Source: a virus
Lineage: Duplodnaviria; Heunggongvirae; Uroviricota; Caudoviricetes
Reading direction: 5' to 3' (one strand)
IMG/VR virus record: IMGVR_UViG_2636415673_000001
Coordinates: 1 to 42,350 of that record
Length of the DNA: 42,350 nucleotides
In this document: positions 926 to 24,635 of the stretch, in pieces
Layout of the letters: every line of letters begins with the position of its first letter
Numbering within the stretch: position 1 is the stretch's first letter
Position numbers and translations under genes: made by a program
The notes under the pieces: generated by a model
Told to the model about the DNA's origin: nothing
The model's database searches: none
The model's input: only the letters and a program-made list of their open reading frames with translations

Positions 926-1288
926 ATGTTAAATATATTTGCAAGGTACACCTCGATTGGTGTGCTGAACACACTTATACACTGGGTGGTTTTTGGTGTA
1001 TGTATCTATGCCGCGCATACCAATCAGGCTCTGGCAAACTTCGCAGGTTTCGTTGTGGCTGTGAGTTTTAGCTTCTTCGCGAATGCAAAATTCACATTCA
1101 AAGCATCAACTACAACGATGCGCTACATGTTATATGTCGGGTTCATGGGAACACTCAGTGCTACTGTTGGATGGGCTGCTGATAGATGCGCACTTCCCCC
1201 GATGATAACTCTTGTCACCTTCTCCGCCATCAGCCTGGTGTGCGGTTTCGTCTATTCAAAGTTCATTGTCTTTAGGGATGCGAAATGA
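926..1288 (+). CDS. gtrA: GtrA, bactoprenol-linked glucose translocase (flippase)
   Basis: 120-aa hydrophobic protein with GtrA-family N-terminus ([13 protein letters not shown]...); first gene of a three-gene operon overlapping gtrB by 4 nt. Confidence 0.85.
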
Positions 1289-2199
1289 AAATTTCTTTAG
1301 TCGTTCCGGTCTTTAACGAAGAGGCCACGATACCTATTTTTTATAAAACCGTGCGCGAATTTGAAGGGCTTCAGCAGCATGAAGTCGAGATAGTCTTCAT
1401 AAACGATGGCAGCAAAGACGCTACAGAATCAATTATCAACGAGCTTGCTGTTGCCGACCCGCTTGTGGTTTCGCTGTCGTTCACACGTAACTTCGGCAAA
1501 GAACCCGCCCTGTTCGCAGGTCTGGACCATGCTACCGGGGAGGCAATTATCCCGATTGACGTTGATCTGCAAGACCCTATCGAAGTTATTCCTTACTTGA
1601 TAGAGAAATGGCAGGCCGGTGCAGATATGGTTCTGGCTAAACGCTCTGACCGCTCCACTGACAGCAGGCTGAAGCGTAAATCTGCTGAGTGGTTCTATAA
1701 ACTTCATAACAAAATCAGCAACCCTAAGATAGAAGAAAATGTTGGCGACTTCCGGCTCATGTCTCGCGAAGTAGTAGAAAACATTAAGCTCATGCCAGAA
1801 CGAAACCTGTTTATGAAGGGTGTGCTGAGCTGGGTTGGTGGTCGAACCGATGTCGTAGAATATGCGCGAGCAGAACGCGTTGCAGGAAGCACAAAGTTCA
1901 ATGGATGGAAGCTCTGGAACTTAGCGCTGGAAGGGATCACTAGCTTTTCTACTTTCCCTTTGCGCATGTGGACTTATATAGGCCTGTTTGTGGCAACCTT
2001 ATCATTCCTTTATGGAGCATGGATGATTGCTGATAAATTGATGTTTGGAAATAGTGTTCCAGGTTACCCTTCTATCATTGTATCAATATTGTTTCTTGGT
2101 GGAGTTCAGTTAATAGGCATAGGAGTTCTTGGAGAGTATATAGGAAGAATTTATGTTGAAGTTAAGCAACGACCAAGATACATTCTAAAGGATAAGTAA
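1285..2199 (+). CDS. gtrB: GtrB, bactoprenol glucosyltransferase (GT2 family)
   Basis: 304 aa; N-terminal GT2 signature (VVPVFNEE...FINDGSKD), C-terminal TM helices; ATGA overlap with gtrA. Confidence 0.9.
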
Positions 2200-2200
2200 A

Positions 2201-3667
2201 ATGACTTTAAATATAAAAAAAACAGCCATATATATCATTGGATTTATATTCTTGACTTTCTTCTACGCCTCGATTTCAAAACAGATTTTGCCAAGTTCGG
2301 ATGCTGTTTCTGGACTTCTTGAGGGTAAGGACATTGCGGACGGAAATTGGACGCTTAGTGGATGGTATCTCTCTACAGTATCATTCTATTTTACAGACAT
2401 AATATGGTACGGGCTTGCTTCAAAGGTATTCTGGTACGGACAGTACCAAGCATACTGCATACCGGCAATTATGTATTCAATGGTTACATTGATGACATTT
2501 TATCTTTCAAAAGAAAGGCTTTCATCGTTATGGGCCATTTCATTTTGCGTTGCGCTGCCTTCTGGGTTTGCAGTATTAAACGTATTAATACCTGTGATAC
2601 ATGTCGGCACATATGTATCCATGTTGTTTTGCTTCATAATGTTAGACAATTTTTCCAAAACAAGATCGTTAATTTCTCTATCTCTTTATATTTTAGTGTT
2701 AGTTCTAGCTTGTTTCAGTGATGACATCATAAAGCTACTCATTATTGCACCAGTAGCAATATCATCAGTGGTTTTTATAGTAAAAACCAAAAGCCAAAAA
2801 AATCTGATCATACTAGTTGCAACTATATTTGCATATGTTGCATCAAAAATTATGACCATGTACGCAAGAGCTCATAACTGGTACATTTTGCCAGGCGTTC
2901 CAGATCCAACATTTGTTGCATTTGATGATATCCTGAATAATTTATACTTATTCGTAAAAGGATTCCTCCTATACAGTGGAGCTTTCTTCTTTGGCAAATC
3001 ACCTTCTGATATTACAGCGCTTATTTCTGTTTTTTGTTTTGTTGTAATGATTTTACTTCTTATATTAGTTGCAATGTCAGTAAAGGAAATATTCAAAACC
3101 TCCATGGTCAATATGGCTATATGTATAGCTTGTATTATAATGATACCAGCATACCTTGCAAGTAACCGTCCAATAGATGAATGGACTATAAGATATATCG
3201 TTCCATTTTTTATACTAGCACCTGTTGTTATTGGCAGATCTAACAACTCCAGAGGGTGGAAATTCATCGCATTAGGGGTTGTTACAACATTTATTCTCTT
3301 TTGTTCTATTTATATGCATGAAAAAAAAGACAATTCTAATGATATTATAAATCAGATAAAACACACTGTAAGGCAGAATAACCTCACAAACGGGTATGCA
3401 TCTTTCTGGTTTGCTTCATCAGCAAGTATAGATGGAGACATATCAATTGCTCCGATTGATGTAAACCGAGGTTTGAATATACTTGCATGCAATAAATGGT
3501 TGTCAAAAAACTATTGGTATGAGCGCGGAGGAAATTTCATAATTACAGATGATGAGGTTATGAGAAATATAACAATTAAAGAGATTGGTAATCCATCAAA
3601 GGTTATTGACGTCGGAGATAAGAAGATTTTTGTTTACGATAAAAACATTACATTCAACTGCAATTAA
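2201..3667 (+). CDS. GtrC-type serotype-specific O-antigen modifying glycosyltransferase (polytopic membrane protein)
   Basis: 488 aa, many TM segments, strongly AT-rich; third position of a gtrAB operon between attachment site and tailspike as in P22/Shigella serotype-converting phages. Confidence 0.7.
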   Translation: MTLNIKKTAIYIIGFIFLTFFYASISKQILPSSDAVSGLLEGKDIADGNWTLSGWYLSTVSFYFTDIIWYGLASKVFWYGQYQAYCIPAIMYSMVTLMTFYLSKERLSSLWAISFCVALPSGFAVLNVLIPVIHVGTYVSMLFCFIMLDNFSKTRSLISLSLYILVLVLACFSDDIIKLLIIAPVAISSVVFIVKTKSQKNLIILVATIFAYVASKIMTMYARAHNWYILPGVPDPTFVAFDDILNNLYLFVKGFLLYSGAFFFGKSPSDITALISVFCFVVMILLLILVAMSVKEIFKTSMVNMAICIACIIMIPAYLASNRPIDEWTIRYIVPFFILAPVVIGRSNNSRGWKFIALGVVTTFILFCSIYMHEKKDNSNDIINQIKHTVRQNNLTNGYASFWFASSASIDGDISIAPIDVNRGLNILACNKWLSKNYWYERGGNFIITDDEVMRNITIKEIGNPSKVIDVGDKKIFVYDKNITFNCN

Positions 3668-5462: not shown

Positions 5463-5518
5463 TTAATTTGCTCCAGATACAAGAAATCGCCGCAGCATGG
5501 CCACGGTGAATTTTGGGC

Positions 5519-5543
5519 ATAAAAAAACCCAGCCGAAGCTGGG
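5519..5543 (-). terminator. Intrinsic terminator upstream of tailspike gene
   Basis: cccagc-cgaa-gctggg hairpin followed on the minus strand by a 7-U run. Confidence 0.6.
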
Positions 5544-5595
5544 TCGTTGCGTTGGTTATCTGTCAGTAGTTATGTACTGGCTGAAGGATTTGTAC

Positions 5596-5616
5596 AAAAA
5601 AACCACCTGACGGTGG
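5596..5616 (-). terminator. Intrinsic terminator (tandem with 5519..5543)
   Basis: ccacc-tgac-ggtgg hairpin flanked by A7 (minus-strand U-run); also a T5 tract on the plus side. Confidence 0.5.
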
Positions 5617-5709
5617 GTTAATTTTTGCATTTACCTGGGCCATATTGACTACTTATAAAATGAGTTCAATATTTAATCGCCCAATAACGGGTGTATGTTG
5701 AGGTATATC

Positions 5710-5889
5710 ATGGCGAAAAAACCAGGTGAAAACACAGGAAAAAACGGCGGAATATACCAAGAAGTTGGCCCACGCGGCGGTAAGAAAGACAATTTTGCCA
5801 CCGTCAAGGACAACGAAAGGCTTCCACCAACAACAAAGCCAGGTCATGGCTGGGTATTGGATAAGCGAACTCCAGACAGCAAAAAGTAA
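5710..5889 (+). CDS. Small Gly/Lys-rich protein (resembles YjzC-type small stress proteins; family not verified)
   Basis: 59-aa ORF with GAGGT RBS 5 nt upstream, candidate ttgact -35 at 5645..5650, own terminator at 5896..5918. Confidence 0.55.
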   Translation: MAKKPGENTGKNGGIYQEVGPRGGKKDNFATVKDNERLPPTTKPGHGWVLDKRTPDSKK

Positions 5890-5895
5890 TAATCA

Positions 5896-5918
5896 AGCCG
5901 GTTCACTCCGGCTTTTTG
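5896..5918 (+). terminator. Intrinsic terminator after 5710..5889
   Basis: agccgg-ttcact-ccggct hairpin followed by TTTTT. Confidence 0.7.
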
Positions 5919-6268
5919 ATATGTCGCTCGCAGAACTCAACAAGCCTGCTCATTAAGTAGCAGTAAGTCTCATTAGCTCTTCCTGGTTCAACATCAACAC
6001 CGACCCTTGAGCAGATATCGAATGCCATGTGAGCGCACTCATGGGCAATAGTAGATAGTTTGCCATTGAACACGCCTATCACATGCAAAACACCATTCTC
6101 GCTGCTCATTGTATGAGACGCTCCGTTGGCATCCGAGTCCTGCACGTCCACACCAAGTTTTTGATGCAGGCGTTGCCATTCTGGAAAGTCTCTACAAAAC
6201 ACAATTGTACCGCTCTCAAAGAGCGGAACGAGCATCTTTGGTACGTTTCCAATGTTAACTTTTTTCAT
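5903..6268 (-). CDS. Small HExxH-motif protein (putative zincin-like metallopeptidase), paralog of 20924..21313
   Basis: 121 aa; HECAH motif; shares IGVF...HECAH...NETYCY...R.V blocks with the 129-aa protein at 20924..21313. Confidence 0.6.
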
Positions 6269-6298: not shown

Positions 6299-6793
6299 GT
6301 GTCTGATTCTATGAGTTACGCTGTGCTAGTTGCCGCAACTCTATTTCTGGGGATAGGGTTGCAGATTGCGTGGTTCTTTTTTTCTAGTTTTATTAAACGT
6401 AAAAGAATTGAATCAAGGATATCTGAGATTTCTATTGCTATAGGGAAAAATGCTGAAAATCCAGAGAATGAGGCCTGCGCACTGAATTACCTTAAAGAAA
6501 AGTTTTCCCCTGAAAAATTTGAAAACAGAATTACTGATGCTCTTGGATTGGTAATATCAGTAATTCATATGCCACTAAGTTTACTGATAACAGTGTGGTA
6601 CTTCGCCATGATCGCCGGAAGAATATTTGGTTTCATGAATATAGATCCTGTAGTTCTTTGGGTTCCAATGATACTGCAATTGTTGTTAAGCGTTGCTATC
6701 TTTATTTTTTCTGTTTTTATAAAAATTGTCTTTGGAAGATACCCCGGAGAAGCGAAGGGATTTAATAAAGAATTCATAAAAACTATAAAATAA
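6299..6793 (+). CDS. Polytopic inner-membrane protein, putative SieA-like superinfection exclusion protein
   Basis: AAGGAGG RBS 5 nt before GTG 6299 (alternative ATG 6311); several TM helices; AT-rich; sits between gp16 and tailspike where P22 carries sieA/immI. Confidence 0.45.
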
Positions 6794-18685: not shown

Positions 18686-20185
18686 TTAAGTTCTCCGTGC
18701 GATGGGCCTGATTGGGGCTGGTATCTTTTTCTCTTTTGGTTTTTTGATGTCGCGCATCATTTTTGCGAAGCGGCGCATCATGTATGCATAGCGAACGGCG
18801 GATAGCACGTCGTCGTTAAGCTTGACGATTTTCCCGTTTTCATCACGGTGATAGAGGCGGAACTCCTCAAAGAATGGCTCACAGGTGTTGAATACTTTGA
18901 AGCGACCGTCGAGCATCATGTCTCGCAATTCAGTGATGCCAGGCTCAACAGCATTACCTCCATCAGGCCATGTTGCATGCTCCTGCAACATCATAAAACC
19001 AGCGTCCGCGTACTGCCCTTTAAGCTGCTCACCGCCGCCCTTCTCGTGCTGGTTTCCGTCATGAGGCCATGCGGTTGGCACTTTATGCGCCCATGATTTA
19101 ACAGCTCCCCACGCCTGAACGGCTGTCTTCTCTTTCGCCTTCCACACGCGTGAAACGTAGATTGTGTCTGCGTCCTTATCCCACCAAAGCTGAACCTGCG
19201 CCTGCGGGTGATCCCATCCGAAATCCATCCCGCCAATCACGTAGAAGTGATCAGGACACTCGAACGGCTGACACTTAATAGTCTCTTCCGGTATCTGGAA
19301 GATTCGACCACTACCCATCGTAGGAATACCGCGAGCACGCGCCTCTCTCTCATGCTCAGGATAAGATGCGATGATTTGCTCTTTCTGTTCGTCTGTGTAG
19401 TGCTCAGCGTCGTAGATGGTCATGTTGACCACTTTCTGCGACTTGCTGGGATTCTTCAGGAACTTGGTAACAACGTCAGACATCCCCATCAGCGGGGTAA
19501 ACGTCAGAATTGAGAATTGACCGTATTTGTTGGTACGGGTAAGACCTTCGCCATAAATGCTGTATGGTGGCTCTTCGTCAAACCACACGCCGTGGATTGT
19601 GTCACCCTGCCAGCGAGCACGGCCTTGCGAGTATGGTTTGAAGTAGCAGATTGAAATGCCATCTTCAACGCCATCAGCCGTGTGATGCTTAACCAGAAGA
19701 TGATCAACAAGGTTCGGAAAGAAAGGAGACTTCTTCCAGCTAATGATGTCCTCTTTCGGTATTGAACCGTATCCCGGTTCATCATTCTCTTCAATACGAC
19801 CGCACAGGATGCGTTGAGTCGTTTTGGTTACCGTCTCGTTTGTCTCGCCGCCAATCCAGAAGACAACAGGCTCATAGAAACGCTTACCTTTCCACTCACC
19901 GCCATATTTACCATCAGCAGGATAGCCTTTTGTGCCCGGATAACGCCCTGTAAGGTGAAACGCGACTTCAGCAGCACCAGTAAATGACTTACCAAGCTGG
20001 TTACCAGCCATAAAACATCGCTCTGGGTAGTCATGTCCGGCGTCGATGAACTCACGCTGTTTGCTGTATGGCGTAAATTCATATAGCAGGTGTGTGTTCC
20101 GGTAGTTCTCTTCTTCTTCGAGTAGCTCGAGCAACTCGATTTGCTCTTCGTCGCTCAGGTTATCAAGAATCGCGTCCAGTTCCAC
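18686..20185 (-). CDS. Terminase large subunit gp2
   Basis: 499 aa, P22 TerL-like; overlaps 3' end of TerS. Confidence 0.95.
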
Positions 20186-20651
20186 GGTTGAATAGCTCCT
20201 TGATACGAGAGCGTCGCTTATCGCGATCTCCCTTATCAGGTGTCACGTCTTCAACTTGCGACTGCTCTTTGAGGCCCAAATCACGGGCGATGATGTTAGC
20301 GTTGAGAAGGTCAGCGGCTGCGCCAGAGAATTTCTGATCGTAGATGACCTGCTCTGCTCGCGTAACGACTTCAGATAAATCTTCTCTCAGGCGATATGTG
20401 CGCCATGTTTCAAGCGTCACATCAATGAACAGAGTGAGGCCGGTAATGGTCATCGCTCGCATCTTGGCGATAGGTTCTTGTATCACTTCACCCTGATACG
20501 AGAACGCCTTCATCTCCCATAGCGGGTTAGCTTCCACCCACTCGAAGTATTCACAACAAGCAGCCCACAGCGCCTCAGGCGATTCGAATTTAGGGTTTCG
20601 CCCATGACTACTGCGGGCCTCCCAAAATCGGTTGCCCTTTGGTGCTGCCAT
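20163..20651 (-). CDS. Terminase small subunit gp3
   Basis: 162 aa matching P22 gp3; contains pac sequence. Confidence 0.95.
20361..20384 (-). other. pac: pac site (headful packaging initiation)
   Basis: Minus-strand gaagatttatctgaagtcgttacg inside the TerS gene, matching the P22 pac consensus as remembered. Confidence 0.7.
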
Positions 20652-20745
20652 ATTGATTATTTCCCTTCTGCTTGCTTATCCCATTCATCGCGGAATTTGG
20701 ATGGGTTGTCGAAGCCCTGAGAGCCTGAACAAACTTTGATTACCA

Positions 20746-20940
20746 TTACTTAGCTCCTTCCTGCTTGCCTGTGTTTGATGTCGTTTCAGCAGCAGCCCCA
20801 GAGCAATTAATGCTACCCGCAACACCATATCCATAACCAGTCTTGAAGAAATTGTTGCCAGTAAATTGGTTAACAATCTTCCCGCAGCACGGGCAGCGTT
20901 GGCATTGGCAATAAGGGGATTGATTATTCCAGTGATACAT
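20746..20940 (-). CDS. Small Cys-rich hypothetical protein
   Basis: 64 aa from internal ATG; CQCQRCPCCGK cluster; overlaps neighbour start. Confidence 0.35.
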   Translation of the reverse strand: MYHWNNQSPYCQCQRCPCCGKIVNQFTGNNFFKTGYGYGVAGSINCSGAAAETTSNTGKQEGAK

Positions 20941-21313
20941 CTTGTTTCTCCTGAATGAATGGCAGGAAGTGATTAACCATCCTGTCCAGCATGTAACAGT
21001 ACGTCTCGTTGGCATCTTCAGGGCTTGTCGTCACGCCGACATCAGAGCAAACGTAAAAGCAGACGTGGGCGCACTCATGAACGAGCGTAGCGATCTGCTG
21101 ATCGAATACTCCAATCAGATAGCATCGCTCACCCGTATCAGTGTTTTCATAGTTGCTTGCAAGCCCAAGATTGAATGGCTTCTCATCCCCGCTGCCGCCA
21201 AGGAATTTATCAGCGTGCTGAAACTGTTCTCTGGTTGTTGCGAGGTAGACGTGTGCACTTTGAAACAGCGGAATGGTGAACGCCGGGAGTTTGTGCCATT
21301 TGGCCTTAGCCAT
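20924..21313 (-). CDS. Small HExxH-motif protein, paralog of 5903..6268
   Basis: 129 aa; HECAH motif and shared blocks with 5903..6268. Confidence 0.6.
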   Translation of the reverse strand: MAKAKWHKLPAFTIPLFQSAHVYLATTREQFQHADKFLGGSGDEKPFNLGLASNYENTDTGERCYLIGVFDQQIATLVHECAHVCFYVCSDVGVTTSPEDANETYCYMLDRMVNHFLPFIQEKQDVSLE

Positions 21314-21314
21314 A

Positions 21315-21557
21315 TCACACTCCAGCGGTGAACAGGTCTAACGCTTCCTTCGATTTACGCACCGCTTCAAATGTGCGGATCGTGATATCCGAATTAGCGC
21401 CGCCTGACTGGAAGTGAATTTTGAATAGCTCAAGCTTCAACTCGTCAGTGCCAATGAACTGAAATGCTTCTTCTGCGGCTGCGTTCTGGTTCATGACCAG
21501 TTTGTAAATCTCTAACTGGAATTTCTGTTCTTCAGTCATGGGAATAATCTCTGCCAT
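21315..21557 (-). CDS. Hypothetical protein
   Basis: Start placed at ATG with GGAG RBS (MAEIIPMTEEQ...); coupled to downstream HExxH gene. Confidence 0.5.
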   Translation of the reverse strand: MAEIIPMTEEQKFQLEIYKLVMNQNAAAEEAFQFIGTDELKLELFKIHFQSGGANSDITIRTFEAVRKSKEALDLFTAGV

Positions 21558-21704
21558 TGTTGGCTCCATTTATCCGTTAAAAGGGATATCAGTTAAGTTA
21601 TCCCGTGTAGGGTATAAGCCATTATCAAAGCCACTCTGTAGGGAATGGCTTTTGTGATGGCAATAAAAAAGGCCGCCTGAGCGACCTTTCATTTTTCATC
21701 CGTT

Positions 21705-21923
21705 TTAATCATCTGGGTAATTAAGCGGCATCCAGTGTGTAACCTTGCTTGCTCCTGAATCGATGAATGCCTTGGTTCTCTGCCAGTAAGAGCCCATACA
21801 TGATAGTTTGAACACGTCACCAGTATCAGTAAGAGCTATAACCTCTTTAGACCACATTCCTTCTTTGCTTTCTGGTAGCCGGTGTTCAACATTGACCCAT
21901 TGGTTTCCGTTATCATCCATCAC
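21705..21923 (-). CDS. DUF551-like small protein
   Basis: 72 aa; C-terminal W-MPL-P motif shared with C-terminus of 38333..38878; followed by hairpin plus U-run near 21665..21695. Confidence 0.55.
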   Translation of the reverse strand: MMDDNGNQWVNVEHRLPESKEGMWSKEVIALTDTGDVFKLSCMGSYWQRTKAFIDSGASKVTHWMPLNYPDD

Positions 21924-22159
21924 AACCTCGTCTTGTTGTTCGCCATAGATTCAGTGGCAGGCGGTGACGAGTCCGCTTTTCGGGAGCTACCCTAGCCACT
22001 GCTTGATTCTATCCGATGTCTTTCCATCAGTCCGCCACCACAAAGAATCTTTTTTGCCATAAGGCTGGAGGTTCATCTTTCAGTGGCTGCCAGTGTTATT
22101 TCCCCACTTACTGGCTTGGGTTGTTTCGTGGTACTGCTGTTAATTAGTGAGTCCTGGGA

Positions 22160-22645
22160 TTATTTCAGTTCGTTACCAGGAATTTCTTTTAGCTCTTTCA
22201 AATGACAACGATTGAGGCTAAACCACTCCCCGTGCGACCTATAGTTGTAATATTTTTGGTGCAATTTGGTTTCAAGCTCTCTATCGGCCGGAATCTTTGC
22301 AATTAGATTTAGCTTCCCACCACTCATGCGAGATATCTCTGAAATTCGTTTATTAACCCTGCGACTAAACCCTATTTTTGTTAGCCCACTATCTTCAGCA
22401 TGCAGAACGTACACATATGATTTTTGCGAAGCACTGGGTGCGACTTTGTTGTAATTAATCATGTCAAACATGAAGCCTTGCTTTAGCAAAGTTTCAAAAA
22501 AGATAGAATTAACACACCCATTCCTTCTCAGCTCTGCACTTAGCTTGTCAATTTCCTCTATGATGTCGCCAGACCCCTTTCCACTTATAAGAAAATCTTG
22601 GTACATGCGACCAATTCTTGAGGTAATTTCAACAAAGTTATTCAT
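22160..22645 (-). CDS. T5orf172 / GIY-YIG-like domain protein (putative nuclease), AT-rich moron
   Basis: 161 aa; motif YVYVLHAEDSGLTKIGFSRRVNKRISEI...GEWF typical of T5orf172-type GIY-YIG domains; AAGGT RBS. Confidence 0.6.
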   Translation of the reverse strand: MNNFVEITSRIGRMYQDFLISGKGSGDIIEEIDKLSAELRRNGCVNSIFFETLLKQGFMFDMINYNKVAPSASQKSYVYVLHAEDSGLTKIGFSRRVNKRISEISRMSGGKLNLIAKIPADRELETKLHQKYYNYRSHGEWFSLNRCHLKELKEIPGNELK

Positions 22646-22790: not shown

Positions 22791-22815
22791 AAAAAAGCCC
22801 CGCAAATGCGAGGCT
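22791..22815 (-). terminator. Intrinsic terminator downstream of Rz/Rz1
   Basis: Minus-strand agcctcgc-attt-gcggggct hairpin (one mismatch) followed by UUUUUU. Confidence 0.55.
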
Positions 22816-22989: not shown

Positions 22990-23457
22990 TCATCGAAGGC
23001 ATTGCGTCCTGATGTATTCCTGAAGCGTTCTCAGTGCTGTTTGGTCGCTGATGATTCCGTCCCGGATACCGAGAACGTTTCGTCCAGCAACTGGAGAGAG
23101 TTCGACGGTGGCATCATTGCCCATGCCGGAGGCGCTGGAGGTTTCGGCTGAGGATGGCACAGGGCATTTTCCTTTGACGAGCACCCGACCACCATTATCA
23201 AGCTTGCGCCGAAGAGCATCATTTTCAGCTTTCGCATCAGCTAACTCCTTCGTGTATTTTGCATCGAGCGCAGCAACATCACGCTGACGCATCTGCATGT
23301 CAGTAATTGCCGCGTTCGCCAGCTTCAGTTCTCTGACATTTTTGTCGCGCTGGGCTTTGTAGGCGATGGCGTTATCACGGTAATGATTAACAGCCCACGA
23401 CAGACAGACGACGATGCAGATAATCAGAGCGGAGATAATCGCGGTTACTCTGCTCAT
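22990..23457 (-). CDS. Rz: Spanin inner-membrane subunit Rz
   Basis: 155 aa; lambda Rz-like N-terminal TM and coiled coil. Confidence 0.9.
23031..23237 (-). CDS. Rz1: Spanin outer-membrane lipoprotein Rz1 (embedded in Rz, +1 frame)
   Basis: Lipobox VVGCSS and Pro-rich stretch; fully embedded in Rz as in lambda. Confidence 0.8.
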
Positions 23458-23930
23458 ACCTCAATCTCTCTGACCGTTCCGCCAGCTTCTTTGAATTTTG
23501 CAATCAGGCTGTCAGCCTTATGCTCGAACTGACCGTAACCAGCCCCCGGCAGTGAAGCCCAGATATTGCTGCAACGGTCGATTGCCTGACGAATATCACC
23601 GCGATCAATCATCGGTAAAGCGCCACGCTCCTTAATCTGCTGCAATGCCACAGCGTCCTGACTTTTCGGAGAGAAATCTTTCAGTCCAAGCTGCTTACGG
23701 TAGGCATCCCACCAACGGGAAAGAAGCTGGTAACGTCCGGCTGCTGTTGATTTGAGTTTGGGGTTTAGCGTGACAAGTTTGCGAGGGTGATCGGAGTAAT
23801 CAGTGAATAGCTCTCCGCCAACAATGACGTCATAACCATGATTTCTGGTTTTCTGACGTCCGTTATCAGTTCCCTCTGACCACGCCAGCATATCGAGGAA
23901 CGCCTTACGTTGATTATTGATTTCCACCAT
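23454..23930 (-). CDS. R: Endolysin R (lytic transglycosylase)
   Basis: 158 aa matching lambda R. Confidence 0.95.
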
Positions 23931-24237
23931 CTTCTACTCCGGCTTTTTTAGCAGCGAAGCGTTTGATAAGCGAACCAATCGAGTCAGTACCGATGTAGCC
24001 GATGAACACGCTCGTTATATAAGCGAGATTGCTACTTAGTCCGGCGAAGTCGAGAAGGTCACGAATGAACCAGGCGATAATGGCGCACATCGTTGCGTCG
24101 ATTACTGTTTTTGTAAACGCACCGCCATTATATCTGCCGCGAAGGTACGCCATTGCAAACGCAAGGATTGCCCCGATGCCTTGTTCCTTTGCCGCGAGAA
24201 TGGCGGCTAACAGGTCATGTTTTTCTGGCATCTTCAT
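23914..24237 (-). CDS. S: Holin S (S107/S105 dual start)
   Basis: Matches lambda S; Met1-Lys2-Met3 dual-start motif present. Confidence 0.95.
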
Positions 24238-24479: not shown

Positions 24480-24555
24480 TGGTGCTGGTTAACGGACTTG
24501 AACCGCTACCCATTCGCTTACAAGGCGACTGCTCTACCATTGGAGCTAAACCAGC
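24480..24555 (-). tRNA. tRNA-Thr (anticodon UGU), phage-borne
   Basis: 76 nt folding by hand into a cloverleaf: 7-bp acceptor GCTGGTT/AACCAGC, D-stem GCTC/GAGC, anticodon loop CTTGTAA, T-loop TTCAAGT, encoded CCA; one G-A mismatch at top of anticodon stem. Confidence 0.65.
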
Positions 24556-24560
24556 ATATT

Positions 24561-24635
24561 TGGCGGGACAGCGTGGACTCGAACCACGATAAGAAGGTTA
24601 ACAGCCTTCCGTAATGACCTTTATACGACTGACCC
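24561..24635 (-). tRNA. tRNA-like gene, anticodon GUU (Asn); possibly degenerate
   Basis: 75 nt; anticodon arm GAAGG-CTGTTAA-CCTTC and T-arm CGTGG-TTCGAGT-CCACG perfect, encoded CCA, discriminator G; U-U mismatches in acceptor and D stems. Confidence 0.5.

What the first reader, a model, noticed from the sequence alone, without database searches (positions are those of the whole stretch)
20924..21313. HExxH-motif small protein, copy 1 of a two-member paralog family inside one prophage
The 129-aa protein here and the 121-aa protein at 5903..6268 share IGVF, HECAH and NETYCY..R.V blocks, so they are clear paralogs carrying a zincin-type HExxH signature. They sit at two separate accessory loci (before the terminase and in the immI-equivalent locus). 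Two diverged copies in one phage suggest specialisation toward different targets, possibly cleavage of host defence or repressor proteins.
Basis: seen in the sequence. Interest (0 to 1): 0.6.

Follow-up and report, generated by a model that had tools for sequence, protein, structure and literature searches.

The report
Two small zincin-like prophage proteins
One P22-like E. coli prophage carries two diverged copies of a small, widespread phage protein with the sequence hallmarks of a zinc protease; the genes (hkcC and Orf-129 types) were catalogued about 20 years ago as 'unknown', and what they cut has still not been determined.

Summary
ORFs 20924..21313(-) (129 aa) and 5903..6268(-) (121 aa) are paralogs (35% identity, E=2e-24). 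They are the only two copies in the window, and both are under strong purifying selection. Neither gene is new: copy 2 is hkcC of HK620/P22, and copy 1 is the Orf-129 type of ST64T, L and epsilon34. Twelve sequenced phages already carry both.

Both belong to PHROG 1365 ('unknown function', no Pfam family), which has at least 954 clusters in public data. H79, E80, H83 and E103 are invariant across 126 diverse members, and Y107 is nearly so. Both AlphaFold models (pLDDT 87 and 90) show a beta-sheet and helix, an HExxH helix, and a helix that starts with the Glu. This is the layout of a minimal gluzincin. No solved structure matches significantly, and Pfam SprT-like scores stay below threshold.

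Each copy sits in its own mobile cassette: DUF2560-zincin between the lysis genes and terS, and hkcC with convergent orf59a beside sieA. Relatives in unrelated phages often lie directly after endolysin or spanin genes.

Most likely they are late-expressed accessory zinc endopeptidases acting on host proteins. The target is unknown. Interest is moderate.

The parts
20924..21313 (-). Copy 1: 129-aa small zincin-like protein of the Orf-129 type. RefSeq lists it as WP_039720090.1, 'hypothetical protein'.
   Evidence: ORF; phrog_1365 E=3e-37; AF2 model pLDDT 86.9; dN/dS 0.06-0.07; RefSeq annotation
21065..21079 (-). HECAH codons of copy 1 (H79-E80-C81-A82-H83), the predicted zinc-binding and catalytic motif. 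The third predicted ligand, E103, is at 21005..21007.
   Evidence: Sequence read; invariance
5903..6268 (-). Copy 2: 121-aa paralog, the same gene as hkcC of HK620/P22.
   Evidence: ORF; phrog_1365 E=1e-39; HK620 hkcC annotation; 99-100% identical in 80 IMG/VR loci; AF2 model pLDDT 90.4
6029..6043 (-). HECAH codons of copy 2 (H76-H80). E100 is at 5969..5971.
   Evidence: Sequence read; alignment A7
21315..21569 (-). DUF2560 protein (PF10834, phrog_571). It is translationally coupled to copy 1 and is its frequent but not obligatory neighbour.
   Evidence: Pfam E=3e-42; adjacent in 58 of 80 related loci, with the gene order swapped in 6 of them
5710..5889 (+). orf59a (59 aa, weak YjzC-like match), convergent with copy 2. 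Together they form a cassette that moves as a unit.
   Evidence: phrog_3202; present next to hkcC in 73 of 84 loci; also paired with it in siphovirus prophage tail clusters
5895..5914 (.). Bidirectional terminator-like hairpin between copy 2 and orf59a. It overlaps the last codons of copy 2.
   Evidence: annotated as a bidirectional terminator in HK620
6311..6793 (+). sieA superinfection-exclusion gene, divergent from copy 2. In P22 the sieA promoter is annotated inside the first 30 nt of the hkcC ORF.
   Evidence: phrog_7745 E=7e-106; P22 annotation
22990..24237 (-). Lysis cassette (holin 23914..24237, endolysin 23454..23930, Rz spanin 22990..23457), upstream of the copy 1 accessory cluster.
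20163..20651 (-). Small terminase subunit gene, 272 nt downstream of copy 1.
   Evidence: phrog_606 E=1e-71

Best explanation
Both ORFs are real genes that encode stand-alone, cytoplasmic, roughly 14-kDa zinc metallopeptidases of a minimal gluzincin type. The predicted metal ligands are the two His of HExxH and a Glu 20 residues downstream. The Glu of HExxH would be the catalytic base, and a conserved Tyr four residues after the ligand Glu is a likely transition-state helper. Both genes lie on the late-operon strand, so they are probably made late in lytic growth. They are dispensable accessory genes carried in two different mobile cassettes. The most likely role is cleavage of one or a few host or competitor proteins, that is, host takeover or counter-defence. 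The two clades may differ in substrate preference because residues lining the active-site helix differ between them.

Shown here: paralogy, purifying selection, family-wide invariance of the motif, predicted topology, and cassette structure. Inferred: metal binding, proteolysis, late timing, and above all the identity of the target.
For: - Paralogy and family. The family has 954 cluster representatives at E<1e-3.
- Conserved residues: H79, E80, H83 and E103 are invariant in 126 diverse members; G50, G93 and Y107 are conserved in at least 90%. H79, E80, H83, E103 and Y107 are invariant in 13 homologs from P22-like, mEp021-like, Eta, Autographiviridae, Schitoviridae and Ackermannviridae phages.
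- Structure: both AF2 models are confident (pLDDT 86.9 and 90.4) and share the same layout. HExxH lies in the first long helix, and the conserved Glu is the first residue of the second long helix.
- Spacing: the HExxH-x19-E spacing and the 'NE' context equal those of thermolysin (H142/H146/E166) and resemble M1 peptidases. This point rests on established knowledge, not on a test done here.
- Weak sequence links point only to zinc peptidases. All 9 PDB profile hits are zinc metallopeptidases (myroilysin E=0.012, astacins, peptidyl-Lys metalloendopeptidase). Pfam SprT-like is hit by 19 of 126 members (best E=1e-4).
- BFVD Foldseek gives 26 phage proteins at E<1e-3; hits in the list (E 7e-5 to 8e-3) include proteins auto-named SprT-like, PolyVal metallopeptidase, Metalloprotease or IrrE.
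- Selection: dN/dS is 0.06-0.07.
- Accessory nature: presence and absence are mosaic and the flanks vary. Members also occur in strictly virulent phages, among early or DNA-metabolism genes.
- Divergence near the active site: clade-specific swaps on the active-site helix and the Glu helix (Y87/D, D91/R, D110/S).
Against: - No curated family reaches its threshold in Pfam, NCBIfam or PADLOC.
- Nothing here identifies a substrate.
- Late-operon placement is unusual for counter-defence proteins, which are mostly made early.
- The recurrent position right after lysis genes fits another role (rival 1).
- No publication was found that assigns a function.
Confidence: 0.4

Rival explanations
1. Lysis-associated accessory peptidase. 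The protein is made together with the lysis genes, accumulates in the cytoplasm, and reaches the envelope through holin lesions as canonical endolysins do. It would then cut an envelope protein or a peptide link (for example Lpp/OmpA tethers or peptidoglycan stem peptides), or it would act in the lysate after release.
For: - Family members lie directly after endolysin or spanin genes, often with overlapping stop and start codons, in unrelated lineages: Ralstonia and Achromobacter Autographiviridae RSB3, Axy09, RS-PII-1 and Anchaing.
- Serratia phage Eta has a self-contained holin-endolysin-Rz-zincin unit sitting inside its head genes.
- mEp021 has the gene after its lysis cassette.
- P22-like and other lambdoid prophages have it downstream of Rz.
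- In 22 non-redundant metagenomic loci, Phage_lysozyme is the commonest Pfam family among the three upstream ORFs (5 proteins, plus one Rz hit).
- The protein is small and soluble with no signal peptide, like holin-dependent endolysins.
Against: - Copy 2 (hkcC) and its relatives are not near lysis genes. They sit in immI or in tail-gene morons.
- Members in N4-like, Ackermannviridae and Kurepalu-1 phages sit among early or DNA-metabolism genes.
- The end of a lysis cassette is a general hot spot for accessory genes, so adjacency may be only positional.
- In the window and in many relatives, 1-2 kb of unrelated morons and a terminator separate Rz from the zincin.
- From my own knowledge, HExxH gluzincins are not a known class of phage peptidoglycan hydrolase.
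Confidence: 0.2
2. Prophage-encoded defence or exclusion factor. The zincin would be a Lit-like abortive-infection protease, or part of a superinfection-exclusion module, that protects the lysogen against other phages.
For: Copy 2 sits in the P22 immI/sieA superinfection-exclusion locus, beside sieA, hkcB or a Rap1a-like gene. Both copies lie in classic moron positions. Lit of e14 is an HExxH protease that acts in this way (own knowledge).
Against: - Both genes are on the late-operon strand. Copy 2 is bracketed by oppositely oriented, lysogen-expressed genes, and the annotated sieA promoter fires away from it.
- There is no PADLOC match.
- Family members occur in strictly virulent phages, which have no lysogen to protect.
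- No promoter-like site precedes either gene on its own strand.
Confidence: 0.1
3. SprT/Spartan-like DNA-associated protease. It would remove proteins bound or cross-linked to phage DNA before or during packaging.
For: SprT-like is the only Pfam family hit repeatedly by relatives (19 of 126, sub-threshold). One database source names a 57%-identical relative a 'SprT-like family protein', and some BFVD neighbours carry the same name. In lambdoid phages the gene lies immediately upstream of many different terminase types.
Against: The scores are below the Pfam threshold (12.5 versus 25.6 bits). The third-ligand His of Wss1/Spartan is absent; the conserved residue is Glu. No DNA-binding domain or basic tail is conserved. 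In Autographiviridae the gene lies after, not before, the terminase genes.
Confidence: 0.08
4. Not a peptidase. The HExxH...E site would bind metal for another chemistry (a hydrolase acting on a small molecule or nucleotide signal, or a hydroxylase-like enzyme), or the protein would act by binding and blocking a partner such as DUF2560 or orf59a.
For: No significant match to any characterised peptidase. There is a weak NCBIfam hit to an aKG-HExxH peptide hydroxylase model (E=0.0035, below threshold). Small partner genes recur next to each clade.
Against: The invariant set H-E-H-E (with nearly invariant Tyr), its spacing and the predicted topology are those of gluzincin peptidases. The partners are not obligatory: DUF2560 is absent in 22 of 80 loci and orf59a in 11 of 84. 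DUF2560 and zincin identities are uncoupled, which argues against a co-evolving pair.
Confidence: 0.12

Closest known systems
HkcC of coliphage HK620 and phage P22; Orf-129 of ST64T and L; gp70 of epsilon34; gene 66 of g341c (PHROG 1365)
   Same: Same family. By the UAB_Phi20 annotation, copy 2 is the HK620/P22 hkcC protein (the UAB_Phi20 product is 100% identical to HK620 HkcC), and it is 99-100% identical to 80 IMG/VR prophage copies. Copy 1 is 59-61% identical to the Orf-129 type and sits in the same position, between the lysis genes and gene 3. The ST64T record already notes that Orf-129 resembles HK620 HkcC.
   Different: Nothing essential differs. The window's copy 1 is a diverged allele (best match in cultured phages is 61%) that is common in E. 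coli prophages. Function is given as 'unknown' in every record and paper found. The P22 reference genome does not annotate hkcC at all.
Gluzincins: thermolysin-type (M4) and M1 peptidases, and the 'minigluzincins' proabylysin and projannalysin
   Same: HExxH on one helix and a Glu ligand at the start of the next helix, with spacing HExxH-x19-E as in thermolysin, and an Asn before the Glu ('NE'). Size of about 110-130 aa and a beta-sheet plus backing helix plus two helices, as in the minimal scaffolds (family features from own knowledge).
SprT-like / Spartan / Wss1 family (PF10263)
   Same: A small zincin with HExxH. It is the only Pfam family hit repeatedly by relatives (19 of 126), and it is the label used by some automated annotations.
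   Different: Scores are below the gathering threshold. The third ligand is Glu, not His. There is no evidence of DNA dependence.
ImmA/IrrE (Peptidase_M78, COG2856) anti-repressor proteases
   Same: HExxH plus a downstream Glu.
   Different: No Pfam match. There is no adjacent HTH repressor partner, and this prophage lacks mnt, arc and ant. One BFVD neighbour is labelled IrrE, but only at E=7e-3 with TM 0.36.
ArdC C-terminal domain and MPTase-PolyVal zincins of polyvalent proteins
   Same: Zincin-like domains of mobile elements, implicated in overcoming host restriction. One BFVD structural neighbour carries the PolyVal label (E=1.2e-3).
   Different: Those are domains of large multidomain proteins that are delivered with the DNA. 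The proteins here are stand-alone, 120-130 aa, on the late strand, and have no Pfam match.
PF18894 'Putative phage metallopeptidase'
   Same: Another HExxH protein found in the same genomic slot. In one prophage group it lies immediately downstream of the zincin and upstream of the terminase genes.
   Different: Not detectably homologous: hhalign probability is 1.6%, covering only the HExxH turn.

Membership tests
PHROG 1365 (hkcC / Orf-129 family) | Full-length match to the family HMM | tested here: met
   E=2.9e-37 (copy 1) and 1.4e-39 (copy 2), covering 119-121 of the 127 profile positions
PHROG 1365 (hkcC / Orf-129 family) | Orthology to the named genes, in the same genomic slots | tested here: met
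   Copy 2 corresponds to HK620 hkcC, between gene 16 and gene 9. Copy 1-type genes lie between the lysis genes and terS in ST64T, L and epsilon34.
Zincin / gluzincin metallopeptidases (clan MA) | HExxH motif, invariant and located on an alpha-helix | tested here: met
   Invariant in 126 and in 13 sequences. It lies in helix 74-91 of copy 1 and helix 71-88 of copy 2.
Zincin / gluzincin metallopeptidases (clan MA) | Third metal ligand is a Glu on the next helix, about 18-30 residues after HExxH | tested here: met
   E103 (copy 1) and E100 (copy 2) are invariant, lie 20 residues after the second His, and are the first residue of the following helix. The convergence of the side chains could not be inspected.
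Zincin / gluzincin metallopeptidases (clan MA) | N-terminal mixed beta-sheet with a backing helix before the active-site helix | tested here: met
   Predicted order beta-beta-alpha-beta-beta-alpha(HExxH)-alpha(E) in both models, pLDDT 86.9 and 90.4. This is a prediction only.
Zincin / gluzincin metallopeptidases (clan MA) | Significant fold similarity to a solved zincin | tested here: not met
Zincin / gluzincin metallopeptidases (clan MA) | Zinc binding and peptide-bond hydrolysis | not testable with these tools
   Needs purified protein, metal analysis and activity assays with E-to-A controls
SprT-like (PF10263) | Score at or above the Pfam gathering threshold (25.6 bits) | tested here: not met
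   Copy 1 scores 12.5 bits (E=0.14); copy 2 has no hit. 19 of 126 relatives hit at E<=0.1, best 1e-4.
SprT-like (PF10263) | Third ligand His shortly after HExxH (as in Wss1/Spartan; own knowledge) | tested here: not met
   No conserved His downstream of H83. The conserved residues are G93, E103 and Y107.
ImmA/IrrE (Peptidase_M78) | Pfam match and an adjacent cognate HTH repressor gene | tested here: not met
   No Pfam hit. The neighbours are DUF2560, DUF551, orf59a and sieA. No mnt, arc or ant in the window.
ArdC / MPTase-PolyVal | Zincin domain fused to an ssDNA-binding or polyvalent multidomain protein, with a Pfam match | tested here: not met
   Nearly all relatives are stand-alone proteins of 100-190 aa. 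No Pfam hit.
Known anti-phage defence proteins (PADLOC), including Lit-like proteases | Match to a defence-system model | tested here: not met
   No match for either copy. One relative has a chance-level hit at E=0.0095.
PF18894 PhageMetallopep | Detectable homology | tested here: not met
   hhalign probability 1.6%

The most novel reading that the evidence does not exclude
The family is a previously unrecognised accessory component of phage lysis cassettes. It would be a minimal gluzincin that is co-transcribed with holin, endolysin and spanin, and that exits through holin lesions, or is released at lysis. It would then cleave an envelope or extracellular protein target. The hkcC clade would be an offshoot redeployed in the immI region.
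Probability: 0.12. Interest if true: 0.7.

Novelty: new member of a known kind. Interest (0 to 1): 0.4.

Why it matters
hkcC is a conserved gene of phage P22, one of the best-studied phages. It is missing from the P22 reference annotation and has no assigned function. Its family has at least 954 sequence clusters across temperate and virulent phages of Proteobacteria, no Pfam family and no solved structure. A firm prediction that it is a minimal zinc endopeptidase, with named catalytic residues, makes the function directly testable in P22, HK620 and ST64T genetics. If the target turns out to be a host defence protein or an envelope component, this would add a widespread enzymatic player to phage counter-defence or to lysis. 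If not, it remains one more small zincin-like accessory gene.

Tried and rejected
- Profile search of PDB sequences with the close alignment A1: no hits at all. With the broad alignment A2: only weak zincin hits.
- PADLOC and NCBIfam: nothing above threshold.
- PF18894, the neighbouring metallopeptidase: not homologous.
- The third homolog search, run with the broad profile, returned mainly the same close relatives and no informative names or domain fusions.
- Fetching loci for distant relatives mostly failed. A2 was too diverse. Three single-protein scans found nothing. The A3 scan of viral contigs returned mostly enterobacterial loci again. The genome scan gave one locus. A tblastn with a consensus sequence added nothing. 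Concatenating 23 distant members into one query did work.
- DUF2560 as an obligatory partner was rejected. It is absent in 22 of 80 loci, and the identities of the two genes are uncoupled; for example, DUF2560 at 96-99% identity sits next to a zincin at 59%.
- orf59a as an obligatory partner was rejected: it is absent in 11 of 84 loci.
- The conserved Cys residues (C81, C89, C106) as a second metal site were rejected. C81 and C89 are not conserved in distant members, where Leu or Ala is common at the C81 position.
- Literature searches on hkcC, orf59a, DUF2560 and phage metalloprotease anti-defence found only 'unknown function' statements.
- Model coordinates are not exposed, so ligand geometry could not be measured.
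Full report
**Observation.** BLASTP aligns them over 113 residues at 35% identity, E=2e-24, with the shared blocks IGVF, HECAH and NETYCY. tblastn of either protein against the whole window finds only these two loci. Both match one phage protein family, phrog_1365 ('unknown function'), at E=3e-37 and 1e-39.

They are genuine coding genes. Copy 1 compared with relatives that are 88-91% identical gives dN/dS of 0.06-0.07. In more distant pairs synonymous sites are saturated while pN stays at 0.09-0.31. Both have Shine-Dalgarno sequences, and copy 1 starts one base after the stop codon of the upstream gene.

The window is a complete P22-like prophage, with integrase, gtrA/gtrB, tailspike and a P22-type late operon on the minus strand. 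It is 100% identical over the two stretches tested to a prophage of E. coli strain LSC52.

**What the genes are called elsewhere.** Neither gene is new. Copy 2 is hkcC, first named in coliphage HK620 with product 'unknown'. The same ORF is present in phage P22 between sieA and orf59a. The P22 reference record does not annotate it and places the sieA promoter inside its first 30 nt. Other P22-like records annotate it as hypothetical.

The epsilon34 genome paper lists hkcC and 59a as 'two genes of unknown function' in the P22 immI/ant moron (PMC2629481). The UAB_Phi20 paper annotates hkcC as unknown (PMC4837284).

Copy 1 belongs to the Orf-129 type of ST64T, phage L, epsilon34 (gene 70) and g341c (gene 66), at 59-61% identity. 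The ST64T record already states that Orf-129 resembles HK620 HkcC.

Of the 81 cultured-phage records that encode the family, 12 have two places; ST160, UAB_Phi20, SE1 and Phi75 are among them. So two paralogs in one phage is a known configuration. RefSeq calls copy 1 'hypothetical protein'.

**Family and motif.**
- A word-indexed search found 206 close clusters, all in Enterobacterales or their phages. None had a Pfam domain, and one carried the automated name 'SprT-like family protein'.
- An exhaustive profile search of 1.84 billion cluster representatives found 954 proteins at E<1e-3 and 266 at E<1e-10. Nearly all are stand-alone proteins of 100-190 aa.
- In an alignment of 126 diverse members (mean column identity 20%), the only invariant columns are H79, E80, H83 and E103. 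G50, G93 and Y107 are conserved in at least 90%.
- H79, E80, H83, E103 and Y107 are invariant in 13 homologs taken from annotated phages of six unrelated groups.
- The three Cys residues conserved among enterobacterial members are not conserved family-wide, so they are core residues rather than a metal site.
- The signature is therefore HExxH-x19-E-x3-Y, with Asn usually preceding the Glu. From established knowledge, this spacing and the 'NE' context are those of thermolysin-type and M1 gluzincins, in which the Glu is the third zinc ligand.

**Structure.** AlphaFold2 models of copy 1 (pLDDT 86.9, pTM 0.81) and copy 2 (pLDDT 90.4, pTM 0.84) have the same order of elements. There are two short strands, a helix, a beta-hairpin, a long helix that carries HExxH, a loop, and a second long helix whose first residue is the conserved Glu. 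This is the layout of a minimal zincin.

Against predicted viral structures (BFVD) there are 26 matches at E<1e-3, all phage proteins. Most are uncharacterised; a few in the list carry automated labels such as SprT-like, PolyVal metallopeptidase, Metalloprotease or IrrE.

Sequence profiles give only weak links, but all of them point to zinc peptidases. Every one of the 9 PDB hits at E<1 is a zinc metallopeptidase. SprT-like is the only Pfam family hit repeatedly, by 19 of 126 members, always below threshold. PADLOC and NCBIfam give nothing.

My reading is that the enzyme class is well supported by motif, conservation and topology. It is not supported by significant homology to a characterised enzyme.

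**Context of copy 1.** The local order on the late strand is:
- holin, endolysin, Rz
- a strong terminator
- a GIY-YIG/T5orf172 protein
- an int-alpA RNA match
- a DUF551 protein
- a DUF2560 protein
- copy 1
- a 272-nt spacer
- the small terminase gene

.

In 80 related IMG/VR loci the zincin always lies between the lysis genes and the packaging genes. These packaging genes are of several unrelated terminase types (P22 gp3-type, Terminase_2, DUF2280).

A DUF2560 gene is adjacent in 58 of the 80 loci. It is usually upstream, but it lies downstream in six. The identities of the two genes are uncoupled: DUF2560 at 96-99% identity is found next to a zincin at 59%. DUF2560 is missing from 22 loci in which the zincin is 82-93% identical (apart from two more distant loci at 55-57%). 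DUF2560 is thus a frequent neighbour, not an obligatory or co-evolving partner.

The decoration gene dec (ST64T Orf-134, phrog_3018) often follows the zincin but is absent here. In one prophage group a PF18894 'putative phage metallopeptidase' follows it; this protein is not homologous to the zincin.

**Context of copy 2.** hkcC is convergent with orf59a (59 aa, weak YjzC-like match) across a bidirectional terminator, and divergent from sieA. This prophage has no mnt, arc or ant, so its 'immI' locus is reduced to sieA-hkcC-orf59a.

In 80 IMG/VR prophages hkcC is 99-100% identical at the protein level while its flanks vary. sieA, hkcB or neither may lie on one side, and mnt/arc/ant in various states lie on the other. 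orf59a is present in 73 of 84 loci.

More distant hkcC-type genes (60-63% identity), again paired with a convergent orf59a (78% identity), sit as an insertion before the tape-measure gene in siphovirus prophages of Klebsiella, of Rosenbergiella, and in a metagenome. hkcC and orf59a therefore move as a cassette.

Both copies lie on the late-operon strand, and no promoter-like site precedes either on that strand. Late expression by read-through is therefore the simplest expectation, but it was not tested.

**Wider distribution.** A tblastn with 23 concatenated distant members reached 105 phage records.
- In four Autographiviridae of Ralstonia and Achromobacter, the gene directly follows the endolysin or spanin genes at the end of the genome, often with overlapping stop and start codons.
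- In Serratia phage Eta a promoter-holin-endolysin-Rz-zincin unit sits inside the head gene cluster.
- In mEp021 the gene lies between the lysis cassette and terS.
- In a Paraburkholderia prophage it lies among small genes upstream of the large terminase gene.
- In N4-like phages (Moonfish, phCDa) it lies in clusters of small genes. In Kurepalu-1 it lies between the DNA ligase and RNA polymerase genes. In an Ackermannviridae phage it lies near NrdA.1 and RegB.
- In 22 non-redundant metagenomic loci, the commonest Pfam family among the three upstream ORFs is Phage_lysozyme (5 proteins, plus one Rz hit), and the commonest downstream families are terminases. Others lie in DNA-metabolism contexts, and one is next to an Acb2/Tad1-like protein.

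The position 'just after the lysis cassette' is thus recurrent across unrelated lineages, but it is not universal.

**Mechanism and alternatives.** I commit to the following. Both proteins are zinc endopeptidases of a minimal gluzincin type. They are made during lytic growth and are dispensable. They act on a small set of host or competitor proteins. I put about 0.7 on the enzyme class, about 0.4 on the whole statement, and much less on any particular target.

The co-occurrence itself is explained by cassette mosaicism.

The main rival (0.2) is a lysis-associated role, suggested by the recurrent linkage to endolysin and spanin genes. It is weakened by the hkcC locations, by the early-gene contexts, and by the fact that the end of a lysis cassette is a general accessory-gene hot spot.

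A prophage defence role (0.1) is weakened by strand orientation, by the lack of a PADLOC match, and by presence in virulent phages. A SprT-like DNA-linked protease role (0.08) fails the third-ligand test. A non-proteolytic role (0.12) cannot be excluded without biochemistry.

**Comparison with known families.** Membership in PHROG 1365, the hkcC family, is certain. Membership in the zincin superfamily is met on motif, third ligand and predicted topology, not met on significant fold similarity, and untested for activity. SprT-like, ImmA/IrrE, ArdC/MPTase-PolyVal, Lit-type defence proteases and PF18894 each fail at least one defining test (see the membership table).

**Novelty and interest.** This is a new, uncharacterised member family of a known kind of enzyme, encoded by genes catalogued as 'unknown' for about two decades.

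Three things add some value. There is a precise catalytic-residue prediction for a P22 gene that the reference genome omits. There is the two-cassette explanation for the paralogs. And there is the recurrent placement after lysis cassettes, which is a testable lead. I score interest at 0.4.

Noticed in passing
window 21940..22002 (-): Rfam int-alpA sRNA match (45.1 bits against a gathering score of 35.8, E=3e-6). It lies in the gap between the GIY-YIG/T5orf172 gene (22160..22645) and the DUF551 gene (21705..21923), inside the late-operon accessory cluster.
   Followed up: no
window 24483..24555 and 24564..24635 (-): Two tRNA genes between the Q-like antiterminator region and the holin gene. 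RefSeq annotates one of them as tRNA-Thr in the matching E. coli LSC52 prophage.
   Followed up: no
window 20652..20923: A 272-nt spacer between copy 1 and the small terminase gene, at the position where ST64T, L and epsilon34-type phages carry the decoration gene dec (Orf-134, phrog_3018). The spacer is conserved in the closest IMG/VR relatives. It holds only ORFs with no PHROG match (20685..20876 and 20746..21015).
   Followed up: partly
window 5463..5709: The immI region is reduced. No mnt, arc or ant is detectable by tblastn. Only terminator-like hairpins remain (5526..5545 and 5603..5616), plus a promoter-like site (5645..5673, +) in front of orf59a. This resembles the remnant arrangement annotated in HK620.
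   Followed up: partly
E. coli LSC52 chromosome NZ_CM137002.1, 1467610..1475255 (L321): The same host genome has a second P22-like prophage. Its DUF2560, zincin (same WP_039720090.1 protein), terS and terL are identical to the window's, but its lysis genes and morons differ (KilA-N, Gp49). One bacterial genome therefore holds three members of the family.
   Followed up: partly
L019 4376..5014 (also L025, L026, L036-L041): In one group of lambdoid prophages, the zincin is followed immediately by a 212-aa PF18894 'putative phage metallopeptidase' (HELYH motif; PHROG 513, labelled 'transposase'), then DUF2280 and the large terminase gene. Two unrelated HExxH proteins thus sit side by side upstream of the packaging genes.
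   Followed up: partly
L168 6001..6563; L170 5001..5556; L171 5001..5526: The hkcC-orf59a pair occurs as an insertion before the tape-measure gene in siphovirus prophages of Klebsiella oxytoca and Rosenbergiella and in a metagenome. A Zn-ribbon-like gene, or a large SNIPE/T5orf172 protein, lies nearby.
   Followed up: partly
L173 209..562 (-): In one P22-like contig, the slot that sieA occupies here, next to hkcC, holds a Rap1a-family gene (a T6SS immunity-like protein).
   Followed up: no
metagenomic loci L266-L319 (upstream neighbours, alignment A5): One of the 22 non-redundant loci has an Acb2/Tad1 hairpin-domain protein (an anti-CBASS/anti-Thoeris sponge family) among the three ORFs upstream of the zincin.
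   Followed up: no
window 22796..22815 (-) and 22160..22645 (-): A strong terminator-like hairpin (8 pairs followed by TTTTTT) lies just after the Rz gene. It is followed by a 161-aa MUG113/T5orf172 (GIY-YIG-like) protein that RefSeq calls a GIY-YIG nuclease family protein. The same gene recurs at 99% identity in epsilon34-type loci.
   Followed up: no
window 926..3667 (+): gtrA and gtrB (O-antigen glucosylation) are followed by a 488-aa ORF with no Pfam match, in the position of a serotype-specific gtrC, next to the tailspike gene.
   Followed up: no
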